Program-made: the position numbers and the translations under genes | Assembly: GCA_951406725.2 (NCBI GenBank) | Contig: OX597816.1 | Span: 88,660,001 to 88,724,000 of the forward strand | DNA: 64,000 nt | Direction: 5' to 3' | From: Octopus vulgaris | Lineage: Eukaryota | Part shown: positions 12,169-39,314 of the stretch, piece after piece | How the letters are laid out: the number at the start of each line of letters is the position of its first letter | Position numbering within the stretch: position 1 is the stretch's first letter | The notes under the pieces: generated by a model | What the model was told of the DNA's origin: nothing | The model's database searches: none | What the model saw: only the letters and a program-made list of their open reading frames with translations

Positions 12169-12253
<85 letters not shown>

Positions 12254-12510
12254 AACGGTGTAAGCAAGAAGATCTCGAATCTATCTTCTAGCCAAGATAT
12301 CTTTAACGCCGCTGCCCCCTACTACAATGAGGCACTGACATCGTGTGGGTTTAAGGATCGCATCTCTTACATGCCAGACCCTAGCAGGAAAAGAAAGCAT
12401 CGCAGAAACGTCATTAGTTTGGTTCCACCCTTCTCGCTCAACGTCAAGACTTGTGTTGGAAGAATTTTCTTTATATTAATACACAAACATTTCTCGCACG
12501 CACGCACACA

Positions 12511-30900: not shown

Positions 30901-33000
30901 GAAGTTTGAAACACGCCTAATACATATCCCGAAAGCCACTCGTCTAATTGCTGTTTCTGTTATTTTCAGAAGGAAAATGAAGAATTTGAGAAGTGGTTTG
31001 TTGAAAACACCTTTTATATTACAGTTATATGTACAAAAGCAGAATATAGCATCACTTCATTCCTTAAATGTTAAAATTTATGATGGAAATAGAAATCAAT
31101 ATTATATATCTTCTTAGATGTGAAGCTGTATGAAAGTTATATCTGCCTTAGAGTTTCGCGTAAGGCACATATGAAATAAATATAAATCATTTGTCTCTTT
31201 ATATAGCTATAAAAGGAATTATTCTAGAGAATCTGTGGAGTGTCTTGGAAAAATAAACGAAGAAATCTTACTATCACAAACAATGTTATATATGTATACG
31301 TAATGAGGTGCGCACACATGTATATTCATTCATAAAAACATGCAATCACACATACAAATATATAGATACAAACACATACACACACTCACATATATATATA
31401 TGCATAAATACGTCTGTGTTACATAACTCAGATACGTTTTCGCTATTATTTGTCTAGATGATTTGTAACAAAAAACCCAACCGTGTGAGGTTCTTTAGAC
31501 ATATTTAGGTACACCATAGGCTCATTTGTGTAAGGGGTTGTTGTTGGGCCAAACGTATTCGGGAGTTGTTGTTCTTTTAATTTGGAGGGATTTTTTTTAC
31601 CAAGTGTTTAATTACTCTAGAATCTTCTTTTCCTCCCTTTGATCCCTTACTGGATAATCTTGATCGAATCAGAACCATTTAAACGAAACTGTTTTGTCGG
31701 ATTGTTTATGTGGTGCAAGTATCAATTTTTTGTAAGTGATGTACGCCACGGGGTCGTAGGCTCCGGCATTTATAAATTTGTACTAACATCATTTTGATAA
31801 TATCGAAGGAATAGTTGCCGAATTGTACAAATAATGTAGCAGAAACAACAGCATTAGAGAGTATATAATTTGTGCTTTTTAGTTGATTCCAGTAATCAAG
31901 GACTATCGTGAAAATTAATTTAGAATTTTTAATTGACCTCTAGAATGGTACTTGTGTGCATTCCATGTTGCGACGACAAAAAAAAAACATTCACATAAAT
32001 AAGTACGTACATGCACAACGCACACACACACACAAAAACACACACACACACGTACACACATATATAGAGAGATAGATAGATAGATATAGACATAATATAT
32101 ATATAGATATGCATACGTTTAACACAAAAATACAAATATATATATATGTGTGTGTATGGGTGGGTGCATGTATATATGTATGTATGTGTGTATGTATGTA
32201 TGTATGTATGTATGTATGTATGTATGCATGTATGTATACATGCATATATACGCGCACAGACAGTCATGAAATTGCAAATATACACATACGTAAAACACAC
32301 CTTATCATGTTTGCGATTGGCGACGATTCCCCATTGAACTGTGAGGTCATTTAGAGTTTTATGATTTAAAGATGCTTCATTTTCAGGTCTTTATGGCAAG
32401 AATACTGAGAAAATATTTTTTGAAATTAGGAAAAATATAATTTTACAAAAATTGAAACAACAATAAATAAACAAATTTTTAAAAAAACAGAACAATGAAT
32501 GCATCCACAAATCCCCAACCAAAACATACAATGCACGCAAAACTTGAAAAATTATTAAGTTTTGGAATTTATTTAACCAATTATTCAATTTACTGAGTAA
32601 AGTAATTCTCTAGAGAAGTTTTATGGTGGAAACTAATCTAATTTTAACGGCAATTAAAGTCAACTGACATTTTATGTTTGGTTACTGGCTTATATACGTC
32701 GTTGGGTAATGACATAATGAAGGTAATAAGTACTTATCTCCACAAAAGTAAAACTTAAGCAAATTTGGGGGGGAAAGAGGAAGTTGGACGAGTTTGTAGA
32801 GTTGACTGTGGCTCCAGTTCCTAAGATAGAAAATATCGACAGTTTTTATCAAGCCAGTAGCCTTTTCCTATATACTTAATCATTCATCATGTGCTTAGTC
32901 ATTGATCGTTCATTATCAAATGTGAGTGTCATACTTACATAACATATATCTATGTATGAGTAAGTGTTTGGGTTTGTAGTTTGTATATTGGTGTATATTT

Positions 33001-33090
33001 ACGTGTACACACTCACATGTACATGTACACTCACATGTACATGTACACTATACGTGTACACACTCACATGTACATGTGAGTGTGTACACG
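33001..33090. repeat. Palindrome-rich minisatellite (cactcacatgtacatgta)n
   Basis: Unit repeated 3 times; acgtgtacacactcacatgtacatg duplicated at 33001 and 33052. Confidence 0.8.
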
Positions 33091-33269
33091 TATAGTGTCC
33101 GTGTATACATGCGGATATTCTGTTGTATGTATGTATGTGTACGCACGTGCGTGTGGGTGTGTGTGTGTTTATATGCATGTTTACACGCGAGTGCGTGTGT
33201 ATGCTTATAGGCTTGGAGGCGTATATGTACGCGTGTATATGGGTGTGTGTATCCATGTTGGTATGTATG

Positions 33270-33998
33270 TACTAGAAGTCCAAATAATTCAAGGAACCAG
33301 ATTAAACGCTCAACAGCTCTGATTTACAACGCATTAGGTCCCCAGACGAAACTGTTGATTTACTGACAATTCTACAACTAAATTTTATCAATCTCCTGAC
33401 CACCATGCTTGGTCCTTAACCTCTATACATCCCTTATCTTTATATTTTTTTATATTTTGTTACATTTTTATCATGTTTTTTTACTTTTATTTTTATTTCT
33501 ATTTCTATTTTTACTTTATAACCTTATGCCTTTACATTTATTTATATTTCTTTATATTTCTTTATATTCTTTATACCCCCTTTACATCTCCTTATATCTC
33601 TTTATATCTTTATGCTCTACATTTTTATATTTTTCTATACTTACACTTTTTATACATTTTTTATCCCTCGTCCTGAATTCTCGCCCCTCCATCTTCACGT
33701 ATATACATGTATTTATTTATTTACATTACTTCAACATCCATTTTTCCTCATCCTACATTGAGAGAAGAAAGAGATGGACGCTTCAATTCTATGCTGCTGC
33801 CGCATTATGTCGTACGCGAATGGGAGGATTTGCATCCCCAACCAAGAATTTTTGATGTAACACATGTCCTTGTGGAAGCTGTTGTGCGCGGCTGAAGAAG
33901 GCCACAGACATACATTATGCATTGTTATAAATCTGTCTAATAAAGGCCCGAAACATATGTACCGCTGAATCCTTCGCATCATGTTTTTATTTTGATCA

Positions 33999-34002
<4 letters not shown>
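33270..34002 (+). mobile_element. PLE-type pLTR / 3' end remnant ending in (TA)n
   Basis: Pyrimidine-rich tract followed by a hammerhead and a TA run; the 5' boundary is uncertain. Confidence 0.55.
33888..33965 (+). ncRNA. Type I hammerhead ribozyme
   Basis: gcgg-CTGAAGA-a-ggcc...ggcc-c-GAAA-catatg-TA-ccgc: helix I gcgg/ccgc, palindromic helix III ACATATGT, GUA cleavage triplet. Confidence 0.8.
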
Positions 34003-34071
<69 letters not shown>

Positions 34072-34846
34072 TACACACACATACGTAACATAGTGGTTTT
34101 CAAATATTTTTGATTTCAATTTACTTGACTTGGTTCCATAGCAAATTACTGTTTAAAAATTTTCTATTATATTTTTATGATTGAATACAGAATTATTGGG
34201 AATTATATAAAAAAAATTGTTGAAATACTTTGTGCATTGTAGAAGTATATCCAATTTATTGCACACAGATCGTAACAGCAAAGAATAACTCTTTGCTCTG
34301 CAATAAGCTTCAGCAAGTAGCCTACCCCCAGTGATGAGAAATAAGCACAGTTATTACAATGGAGAATCGGTTTTACAGGCACAATCTGTTAGAGCTGACA
34401 CTTACTGAACGTCTGAGACATTAGAGATACATTTTATTGTCACTGAAACCTCGAGTGTTTCATGTCTCTGCAAACAATTCTACATCTACATATATATACT
34501 ATAAACATCGTATTAAGTACCTTTTCGCCTGATTGTATTAATAAAGATATGCCCACACATATAAAATAGGTAATTCAAAATGATATGTATCTATGTTGAT
34601 AGAATGTTTGTTGAAATACAAAGTGACTCGAGGTTCTTCACTAAGACATTTTTTACCATCATCAGACGTTAAAAACTTAACCCTTTGCAGCAATCTTAAG
34701 ATAAACATACTACAATCTAGATGTGTTGCTTGTATTGCAATAAGTTACCAATAGACTATACAACTAACTGTATTCCATTCGTATATAAACAGTACAACTG
34801 AATACACTATACATATACATACATATGCATGTATATATGGTTGTAC

Positions 34847-36295: not shown

Positions 36296-36360
36296 TGCTA
36301 CACTGATGATGAGAAATTAGTAAGTAAATATACTTTAATCTCGAAACGCGTATATGGTTA
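36296..36360 (+). ncRNA. Type I hammerhead motif with weakened helix I
   Basis: CTGATGA-t-gaga...tctc-GAAA-cgcg-TA; palindromic ACGCGT helix III; helix I has a mismatch and wobbles. Confidence 0.6.
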
Positions 36361-38447: not shown

Positions 38448-39314
38448 ATATAATAATAAGAGTAAATAATTTCTATAAAGGCTTTTAAAAAAACCCCAAT
38501 TATTTACTGGTAGAATTCGGTATGTAAATATAGCCGATTACCGGCAGGAACTTCTGTAAAGTTCAGTATATATATTGTATATAAGAAAAAGGGACAGGCA
38601 AAACAGGTTGCTTGACCGCATACCGAAAAAATAGAAATAGCAGTCGAGAATGCTTATTTCTATCAAAGTTGGACTCCGGGCATGACAGACCCTGTAATTC
38701 ACATATGCAAAACAGAAGGAATAGATAACGAATACGAAGTCTGGCGGTTATCTGTGAACATCATGTTTCTGGATTATAAACATATTGAATATATATTCCA
38801 TATATATTTTTGATATATATTTCATATACATTGCATATATATTTCACATCCTTCTTCAGCACAGCTTTCCATTGAAAAAGATTTATCATAGATTTATCAA
38901 ATGCTACGTACCTCAAACCTTCTGACCATGCGAAATCAAAATATTTGAAGAAAGTGAGCTATTTCTATTTTTTCGGTATGCGGTCAAGCAACCTGTTTTG
39001 CCTGTCCCTTTTTCTTATATACAATATATATACTGAACTTTACAGAAGTTCCTGCCGGTAATCGGCTATATTTACATACCGAATTCTACCAGTAAATAAT
39101 TGGGGTTTTTTTAAAGCCTTTATAGAAATTATTTACTCTTATTATTATATTACTATTTGGATTTTTCACTCCCTTTGACAACCTAATTGTTCCCCATCTT
39201 ATGGAACTATTTTTGTAATGCGTATGGCAAAATTTTGGAGGGAAGATTTATGAATTCAAACGTCTATGTAGGTTTAGCTTTTGCTCACTTTCTTCAAATA
39301 TTTTGATGTCGTAT
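38448..39314. mobile_element. Hammerhead-containing element with inverted duplication and no recognisable ORF (PLE pLTR / retrozyme-like)
   Basis: 38448-38641 is the RC of 38958-39150 (one indel seen); 38928-38959 is the RC of 39283-39314; HHR lies in the spacer; TA runs at both ends. Confidence 0.85.
38752..38864 (-). ncRNA. Type I hammerhead ribozyme
   Basis: Minus strand ctgtg-CTGAAGA-a-ggat[AT-rich loop]atcc-a-GAAA-catgatg-TT-cacag: 5-bp helix I, GUU triplet. Confidence 0.75.

What the first reader, a model, noticed from the sequence alone, without database searches (positions are those of the whole stretch)
33888..33965. Near-canonical hammerhead sharing an extra-nucleotide architecture with the 38752 motif
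Seen: gcgg-CUGAAGA-A-GGCC...GGCC-C-GAAA-CAUAUG-UA-ccgc. Like the 38752 HHR, whose helices have different sequences, it has one extra base on each side of helix II (A after the core, N before GAAA), a long loop II and a CAU..AUG helix III. Inference: a shared lineage-specific HHR variant rather than two independent mutations. It lies about 40 bp upstream of a (TA)n run, with no intact ORF nearby.
Basis: partly seen in the sequence, partly recalled or inferred. Interest (0 to 1): 0.7.

Follow-up and report, generated by a model that had tools for sequence, protein, structure and literature searches.

The report
Mismatched hammerhead in Penelope-like retrotransposon
This is a hammerhead RNA motif, likely self-cutting but untested, at the tail of a young jumping gene present in well over a thousand copies; its two "extra" bases are really one mismatched pair at a position already known to vary in such elements, so it is a modest variant rather than a new design.

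Summary
The motif is real: a type I hammerhead at 33888-33965, 40 nt before a (TA)n run. It lies at the 3' end of a 936-bp, 5'-truncated copy of a young Hydra-clade Penelope-like element; longer copies carry an 836-aa RT/GIY-YIG ORF. The A is not private: 1,945 of 1,949 pattern matches have it (1,643 A·C), and one has G-C. The "extra bases" are positions 10.1 and 11.1 themselves, since sister families put G-C, G·U or U·U in the same register. The 38752 motif (A·A) sits in a 644-nt tandem retrozyme-like repeat with no detectable homology to this element. The trait is not lineage-specific: 15 of 25 published Hydra-clade hammerheads have U·U or U·C here, and 9 of 22 hammerheads in 800 kb of position-chosen DNA are mismatched. 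Likely working: weak cleavage after 33961 as a dimer through the palindromic helix III, perhaps protein-assisted, with most templates copied uncut. No cleavage was shown. New detail: family-wide A·C, A·A and C·A pairs and a 41-nt loop II. The scan noted similar Hydra-clade hammerheads before, on other DNA (e1-8670794, e1-9521505).

The parts
33068..34003 (+). 5'-truncated 3' end (3' UTR / pseudo-LTR) of a young Hydra-clade Penelope-like element, family A
   Evidence: 936 of 936 bases identical to L056 7226-8161, downstream of an RT/GIY-YIG ORF; 1,423 first-look candidates, 20 matches (one of them the window's own) at the top score and 100% identity
33000..33075 (-). short inverted copies (25 and 38 nt) of the element's truncated 5' end, i.e. 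a 5' inversion junction
   Evidence: blastn against L056; sequence
33888..33965 (+). type I hammerhead motif: 4-bp helix I, CUGAAGA/GAAA core, 4-bp helix II base with a 41-nt loop, palindromic helix III
33899..33899 (+).
   Evidence: A in 1,945 of 1,949 family pattern matches
33949..33949 (+).
   Evidence: C in 1,643 matches; not C (mostly A among those listed) in 302
33953..33960 (+). 8-nt self-complementary helix III strand, predicted dimer interface
   Evidence: no hairpin on its own; duplex with a second copy -7.0 kcal/mol
33961..33962 (+). predicted cleavage site, 3' of A33961 (GUA)
   Evidence: hammerhead consensus; not tested
33877..33894 (+). predicted competing hairpin that would hide the 5' strand of helix I and the start of the core
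   Evidence: helix I pairing probability 0.00-0.01 in 161- and 241-nt contexts against 0.75-0.77 in the isolated motif; prediction only
34002..34073 (+). (TA)n run, the likely insertion target
   Evidence: (TA)n preference is listed for nearly all Hydra families
38455..39314 (.). family B: partial 644-nt retrozyme-like monomer plus an inverted partial copy, between (TA)n runs; no detectable homology to family A
38752..38864 (-). family B type I hammerhead with A10.1·A11.1
   Evidence: A·A in 41 of 41 copies in L031-L050

Best explanation
The motif is the type I hammerhead in the terminal repeat of a young Hydra-clade Penelope-like retrotransposon, with a family-wide A10.1·C11.1 mismatch at the base of helix II, and it likely cuts only weakly, as a dimer, 3' of 33961. 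Shown: the family context, the fixed mismatch, and the layout of longer copies (hammerhead, 197-nt leader, 836-aa ORF, long 3' UTR, second hammerhead, (TA)n). Inferred: in a read-through transcript with two repeats, the two palindromic helix III strands pair and form the active cores, perhaps helped by the element's protein. Cutting would trim the unit RNA. Because cutting is inefficient, most templates would be reverse-transcribed uncut (or re-joined), starting about 40 or about 110-120 nt past the site and primed at (TA)n. The window copy is a truncated by-product with no ORF. Position 10.1·11.1 is loosely constrained across this genome's hammerheads, so the 38752 motif most likely resembles it by separate drift in a different element.
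For: Family. ORF with Hydra marks (DKT, CxCX5C, CxxC and CxH around the C-terminal E and N; RWA here, RWK in sister families); by eye it resembles published Hydra-1_Obim motifs. Hammerhead on both sides of one ORF region in L213 and upstream of the ORF in L143. Counts A·C 1,643, A·D 302, non-A 4, controls 0. Same register filled by G·U, G-C and U·U in sister families at 59-66% RT identity. Register with A·C favoured by 3.4 kcal/mol over a bulged-A register. Fourth helix II pair changes C-G to U-A between subfamilies (32 of 130 copies). The next (TA)n run lies 31-60 nt (29 of 66) or 96-140 nt (26 of 66) past the site, like the two RT start sites and tail of the anole element, whose hammerhead cuts only with protein and whose uncut RNA is the main template (PMC11167929). 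Dimer behaviour of such motifs: PMC4209133, PMC7229834.
Against: No cleavage was observed. None of 34 distinct ORF-bearing copies starts within 30 nt of the predicted cut, and 6 read through an upstream site (one of the 6 is the reference itself), so the genome shows no footprint of cutting. The motif is no more stable than shuffles and is predicted to be hidden in context. Perreault et al. say U·U supports more activity than any other mispair at this position, so A·C may be much weaker. Clade assignment rests on motifs, not a tree; Pfam gave no hit.
Confidence: 0.7

Rival explanations
1. Catalytically dead relic: the fold is kept for protein binding or as a landmark near the RT start sites, and the mismatch is tolerated because cutting no longer matters.
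For: No copy starts at the cut (0 of 34); every matched copy keeps both sides of the site; hammerhead mutants of the anole element still insert in vitro; many first-pair states in this genome.
Against: Core, UH site, helix I and the helix III palindrome are kept across families whose RTs are only about 65% identical and whose helices differ. A·C is an R:Y pair, which on a literal reading fits the motif used by PMC10945747. An axolotl U·U motif cuts 22% as a monomer and better as a dimer.
Confidence: 0.17
2. One reading: a single lineage-specific variant with two extra nucleotides, inherited by both motifs from one ancestor.
For: Both have A after the core, long loops II and CAU..AUG. A·A recurs in several families here, and a subfamily of family A is A·A. 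Deep common ancestry would leave no blastn trace.
Against: No homology between the elements; same register paired in sister families; unpaired 10.1·11.1 published for distant phyla; 11 kinds of first pair among 22 sampled motifs.
Confidence: 0.07
3. Alternative register: A33899 is the known unpaired base between 9 and 10.1, G33900 pairs with C33949 as a standard G10.1-C11.1, and one C bulges from helix II.
For: The CCC run allows it. Cervera and de la Pena describe a base between 9 and 10.1 and, in D. virilis, a helix II bulge. 3 of 22 sampled motifs have a bulged base plus G-C. Core contacts that folding programs ignore could favour it.
Against: 3.4 kcal/mol worse, pair probability 0.02 against 0.77; unavailable to the A·A subfamily (most of the 100 listed of 302 matches) and to family B.
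Confidence: 0.06

Closest known systems
Hydra-clade Penelope-like elements and their hammerheads (Craig et al. 2021, PMC8557442; section 11, passages, supplement parts 1-2 and search hits seen)
   Same: C-terminal GIY-YIG, DKT, CxCX5C linker, CxxC/CxH, (TA)n target, type I hammerhead near the 3' end with palindromic helix III. 15 of 25 listed families have an unpaired 10.1·11.1 (14 U·U, 1 U·C), 2 have G·U, 7 G-C, 1 a bulged G.
   Different: The mismatch is A·C (A·A in a subfamily). Loop II is 41-52 nt against 3-10 nt. The unit is about 4.8 kb (L213) against mostly under 3 kb. RWK reads RWA. The hammerhead differs from that of Hydra-1_Obim, so this is another family.
Metazoan PLE hammerheads (Cervera and de la Pena 2014, PMC4209133; parts 1-2 of 4 read)
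   Same: Type I motif in the terminal repeats, short helix I, palindromic helix III, proposed dimer, low activity, mostly single truncated copies, inverted pairs.
   Different: Their consensus has one unpaired base between 9 and 10.1 and a conserved G10.1-C11.1; here the first pair itself is mismatched.
Non-LTR retrozymes, e.g. axolotl HHR_Amex2 (PMC7229834, section 15 and passages; bioRxiv 10.64898/2026.07.22.740005, parts 1-2 of 5)
   Same: Family B is a tandem, non-coding 644-nt unit with one type I hammerhead per unit. HHR_Amex2 has a U·U mismatch at the base of helix II and is active.
   Different: Family B has A·A and a 73-nt AU-rich loop II. Its circles and cleavage were not tested. The focal family A is ORF-linked, not a retrozyme.
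Poseidon element of Anolis carolinensis (Frangieh et al. 2024, PMC11167929; passages and second part of main text read)
   Same: Two 3' end positions downstream of the hammerhead (tail), AT-rich target, hammerhead kept whole in insertions.
   Different: Other clade. There the ORF starts inside the hammerhead; here the ATG is 197 nt past the cut.

Membership tests
Type I hammerhead ribozyme | CUGANGA and GAAA core with a UH site | tested here: met
Type I hammerhead ribozyme | Three helices, helix I open | tested here: met
   helix III is weak as a monomer (pair probability about 0.24) and full as a predicted dimer
Type I hammerhead ribozyme | Standard pair 10.1-11.1 (usually G-C) | tested here: not met
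   A·C in 1,643 matches, G-C in 1; natural exceptions are in print
Type I hammerhead ribozyme | Match to an Rfam hammerhead model | tested here: not met
   the long loop II is a likely cause (inference)
Type I hammerhead ribozyme | Site-specific self-cleavage | not testable with these tools
   only contigs were available
Penelope-like element, EN+ | Single ORF with RT followed by a GIY-YIG-type domain | tested here: met
   836-aa ORF with YRDD and a C-terminal VIY..YIG, read by motif; Pfam had no hit on the 695-aa partial; absent from the truncated window copy
Penelope-like element, EN+ | Partial tandem (pseudo-LTR), inverted 5'-truncated copies, optional tail | tested here: met
   (L213)
Hydra clade | DKT in place of DKG | tested here: met
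Hydra clade | CxCX5C linker; CxxC and CxH around the conserved E and N; no CCHH | tested here: met
   read by eye; regex
Hydra clade | N-terminal RWK | tested here: inconclusive
   RWA in family A; RWK in 5 of the 13 long sister-family ORFs
Hydra clade | (TA)n insertion preference | tested here: met
   62 of 66 distinct copies have a (TA)n run within 330 nt of the site, 55 in two clusters; no shuffled control, and the genome is rich in (TA)n
Hydra clade | Placement in the clade on an RT tree | not tested
   reference proteins were seen only as supplement text
Non-LTR retrozyme (family B) | Tandem non-coding units, each with a type I hammerhead | tested here: met
   644-nt period in L054 and L055; no hit to P0001 in 20 of 20 loci with 1.5-kb flanks
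Non-LTR retrozyme (family B) | Circular RNA intermediates | not testable with these tools
   no raw RNA reads were offered

The most novel reading that the evidence does not exclude
Purine-containing mismatches at 10.1·11.1 (A·C, A·A, C·A) have been fixed separately in several unrelated retroelement families of this genome because they act as a selected brake: they keep the hammerhead slow, or dependent on a dimer partner or the element's protein, so that enough uncut RNA survives to be reverse-transcribed. A·A and C·A fall outside the R:Y or Y:Y rule used for the biochemically defined motif, so activity would widen the hammerhead consensus, and sister families with G-C, G·U, U·U, A·C and A·A would form a natural series for testing what PLE hammerheads are for.
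Probability: 0.2. Interest if true: 0.5.

Novelty: new variant of a known kind. Interest (0 to 1): 0.27.

Why it matters
The role of hammerheads in Penelope-like elements is still open (PMC8557442 says so). This genome holds young, ORF-intact Hydra-clade families whose hammerheads differ at the first pair of helix II, which gives a ready series for asking whether cutting rate matters for transposition. It also shows that descriptors demanding a paired 10.1-11.1 and a short loop II would miss many motifs here: 9 of 22 sampled are mismatched, and Rfam missed this one. The phenomenon itself, an unpaired base of helix II in PLE and retrozyme hammerheads, is already in print, so the gain is incremental.

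Tried and rejected
Rfam scans: no hammerhead hit. A core pattern with a 10-40 nt gap missed the motif because the gap is 51 nt; its one hit at 36303 is at chance level. Pfam: no hit on the ORF. Expression: no RNA holder listed on record; 14 holders were only guessed to be RNA, and only contigs were available. Laying 4 runs on L143 8300-9900 gave no joints and no piles of ends, which says nothing on cleavage; one adapter-ended contig 13 nt from the site was dismissed as a single record. No variant at 10.1 or 11.1 was among the 40 rows shown there, but 64 rows were hidden. A footprint of cutting at 5' ends was sought and not found. An autonomous partner for family B was not found in 20 loci. The C·A family (L181-L210) is old (about 80% identity between copies); 9 of 30 loci passed the descriptor and it could not be tied to an ORF, so it was not used to argue selection. 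The tree of 37 family A variants is unrooted in effect and mixes flanks, so no order of A·A and A·C is claimed. Private mutation: rejected. Lunse et al. 2017 on small PLE hammerhead variants was not available; only its title was seen. Paper searches for A10.1/A11.1 or cephalopod hammerheads showed no description of A·C or A·A at this position. The supplements of PMC4209133 and PMC3088659 were not examined and may hold such cases.

Full report
Observation. The second motif is on the minus strand at 38864-38752, with A on both sides of helix II. A descriptor I wrote after seeing the motif finds these two and nothing else in the window, against 0.01 hits per shuffle in 100 shuffles. The isolated motif folds as a hammerhead but is not more stable than shuffles (z 0.28). 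Rfam does not call it.

What carries it. A search of the own genome (2.8 Gb; probably a cephalopod, which is an inference I did not test) with 33760-34000 gave 1,423 candidates, of which 40 were scored; 20 matches, the window's own included, share the top score at 100% identity. The shared stretch runs from 33068 to 34003 and is identical over 936 bases to the 3' end of locus L056, downstream of a long reading frame. A fuller copy (L143) has an 836-aa ORF whose ATG lies 197 nt past the predicted cut of an upstream hammerhead. L213 has the same hammerhead on both sides of an interrupted ORF, 4.8 kb apart. The protein has YRDD, DKT, a CxCX5C linker, a C-terminal VIY..YIG stretch, and CxxC and CxH motifs. 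These are the marks Craig et al. give for the Hydra clade of Penelope-like elements (PMC8557442 section 11). RWK reads RWA here but is present in 5 of 13 long ORFs of sister families. I made no tree, and Pfam gave no hit. Inverted 5'-truncated partners are common, and the window copy has short inverted pieces at its 5' junction.

Is the A private? No. A family pattern gave 1,643 matches with A·C, 302 with A opposite another base (mostly an A·A subfamily among the 100 listed) and 4 without A, one of them G-C. Reversed-pattern controls gave 0. These count copies, not events. A looser pattern fixing only A, GG and CC gave 2,855 matches against 15 controls, with C, A or U before GAAA. The same pattern without A gave 845 against 29, often C·A.

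Are the bases extra? No. Sister Hydra-type families at 59-66% RT identity have the same spacing, loops II of 43-50 nt and 6-nt palindromic helices III, but place G·U, G-C or U·U at these two positions. They are therefore 10.1 and 11.1. The alternative register (bulged A, G-C, bulged C) is 3.4 kcal/mol worse and is closed to the A·A subfamily. Between subfamilies the fourth helix II pair changes from C-G to U-A (32 of 130 copies collected), which is one event in favour of the register. The focal subfamily lacks 11 nt of loop II that the A·A subfamily has, so the loop is loosely constrained.

Is it shared with 38752, and lineage-specific? The 38752 motif belongs to a 644-nt unit found in tandem, between (TA)n runs and with inverted partial copies. 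No ORF hit was found in 20 loci, so it looks like a non-LTR retrozyme. It is A·A in 41 of 41 copies and has no detectable homology to family A. In 80 stretches of 10 kb chosen by position, 22 type I motifs passed the descriptor (0-1 in each of five shuffles): 7 G-C (3 with a bulged base), 6 other standard or wobble pairs, and 9 mismatches (3 A·C, 2 A·A, 2 U·U, 1 A·G, 1 C·C). Some of these are probably decayed single copies, and two are one inverted pair. CAUAUG also occurs with G-C. In print, Craig's File S2 lists 25 Hydra families, of which by my count 15 have U·U or U·C, 2 G·U, 7 G-C and 1 a bulged G; a Chara element has C·A. Perreault et al. report a natural U10.1·U11.1 and say U·U is the most active mispair (PMC3088659, passages). 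An axolotl retrozyme with U·U cuts 22% in an hour as a monomer and better as a dimer (PMC7229834 section 15). An unpaired first pair is thus a known trait of these elements. I found no description of family-wide A·C or A·A, but Lunse et al. 2017 was unavailable and the supplements of PMC4209133 and PMC3088659 were not examined.

How it likely works. The helix III strand is an 8-nt palindrome with no hairpin of its own and a -7.0 kcal/mol duplex with a second copy, the dimer design described for metazoan PLE hammerheads (PMC4209133, parts 1-2). In its native context a competing hairpin is predicted to hide helix I. Among 66 distinct copies the next (TA)n run lies 31-60 nt (29) or 96-140 nt (26) past the predicted cut, with 11 elsewhere or absent. 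This matches the two internal RT start sites and tail of the anole element, whose hammerhead cuts only in the presence of protein and whose uncut RNA is the main template (PMC11167929). Against in vivo cutting as a step that sets ends: of 34 distinct ORF-bearing copies, 12 reach upstream of the ATG, 6 of them (the reference included) read through an upstream site, and none starts within 30 nt of it. I therefore favour a weak, dimer- or protein-dependent ribozyme (0.7) over a dead relic (0.17), a shared two-insertion variant (0.07) or the bulged register (0.06). A·C is an R:Y pair and on a literal reading fits the motif used in PMC10945747 (passage), while A·A and C·A do not. Public runs gave only contigs and no information on cleavage.

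Earlier notes of the scan (none by sequence) describe a fixed C·C mismatch in Hydra-clade hammerheads of another genome, long-armed Hydra-clade hammerheads in this genome, and PLE-spread retrozymes here. They are unchecked AI notes and not independent support; the word 'brake' in the novel case is taken from one of them.

Verdict. A real, family-fixed hammerhead variant in a new family of a known clade. Novelty: new variant of a known kind. Interest 0.27.

Noticed in passing
L231-L310 (80 stretches of 10 kb): 22 type I hammerhead motifs in 800 kb; a rough extrapolation gives tens of thousands in this genome, in many families.
   Followed up: partly
L218 5815, 8003, 5209; L220 9833; L247 9049: A compact family with A·A, a 2-bp helix II and a 4-nt loop II, followed by (TA)n at about 37 or 108-117 nt.
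   Followed up: no
L181 179 and 653 (minus strand): Two identical hammerheads 474 bp apart with A·A and a 10-nt palindromic helix III insert; a possible further retrozyme family.
   Followed up: no
L221, L220 against L222, L224: One family occurs as an A·A and a C·A subfamily with otherwise matching helices.
   Followed up: no
L097 906, L145 1220, L147 1100: Three ORF-bearing copies begin at the same point 36 nt before the ATG. L097 and L147 share about 900 nt of inverted 3' UTR there; L145 shares only the last 30 or so. This could be a re-copied inverted master or a segmental duplication.
   Followed up: partly
window 12251-12418: Short fragment of another Hydra-like RT (about 40% identity, E 1e-7), flanked by (CA)n runs.
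   Followed up: no
L131-L142, L149: Sister Hydra-type families with open frames up to about 980-1,090 codons and hammerheads upstream and downstream of the ORF; some look intact.
   Followed up: partly
window 33000-33075: Nested short palindromic copies at the 5' junction of the insertion, suggesting repeated fold-back during integration.
   Followed up: no
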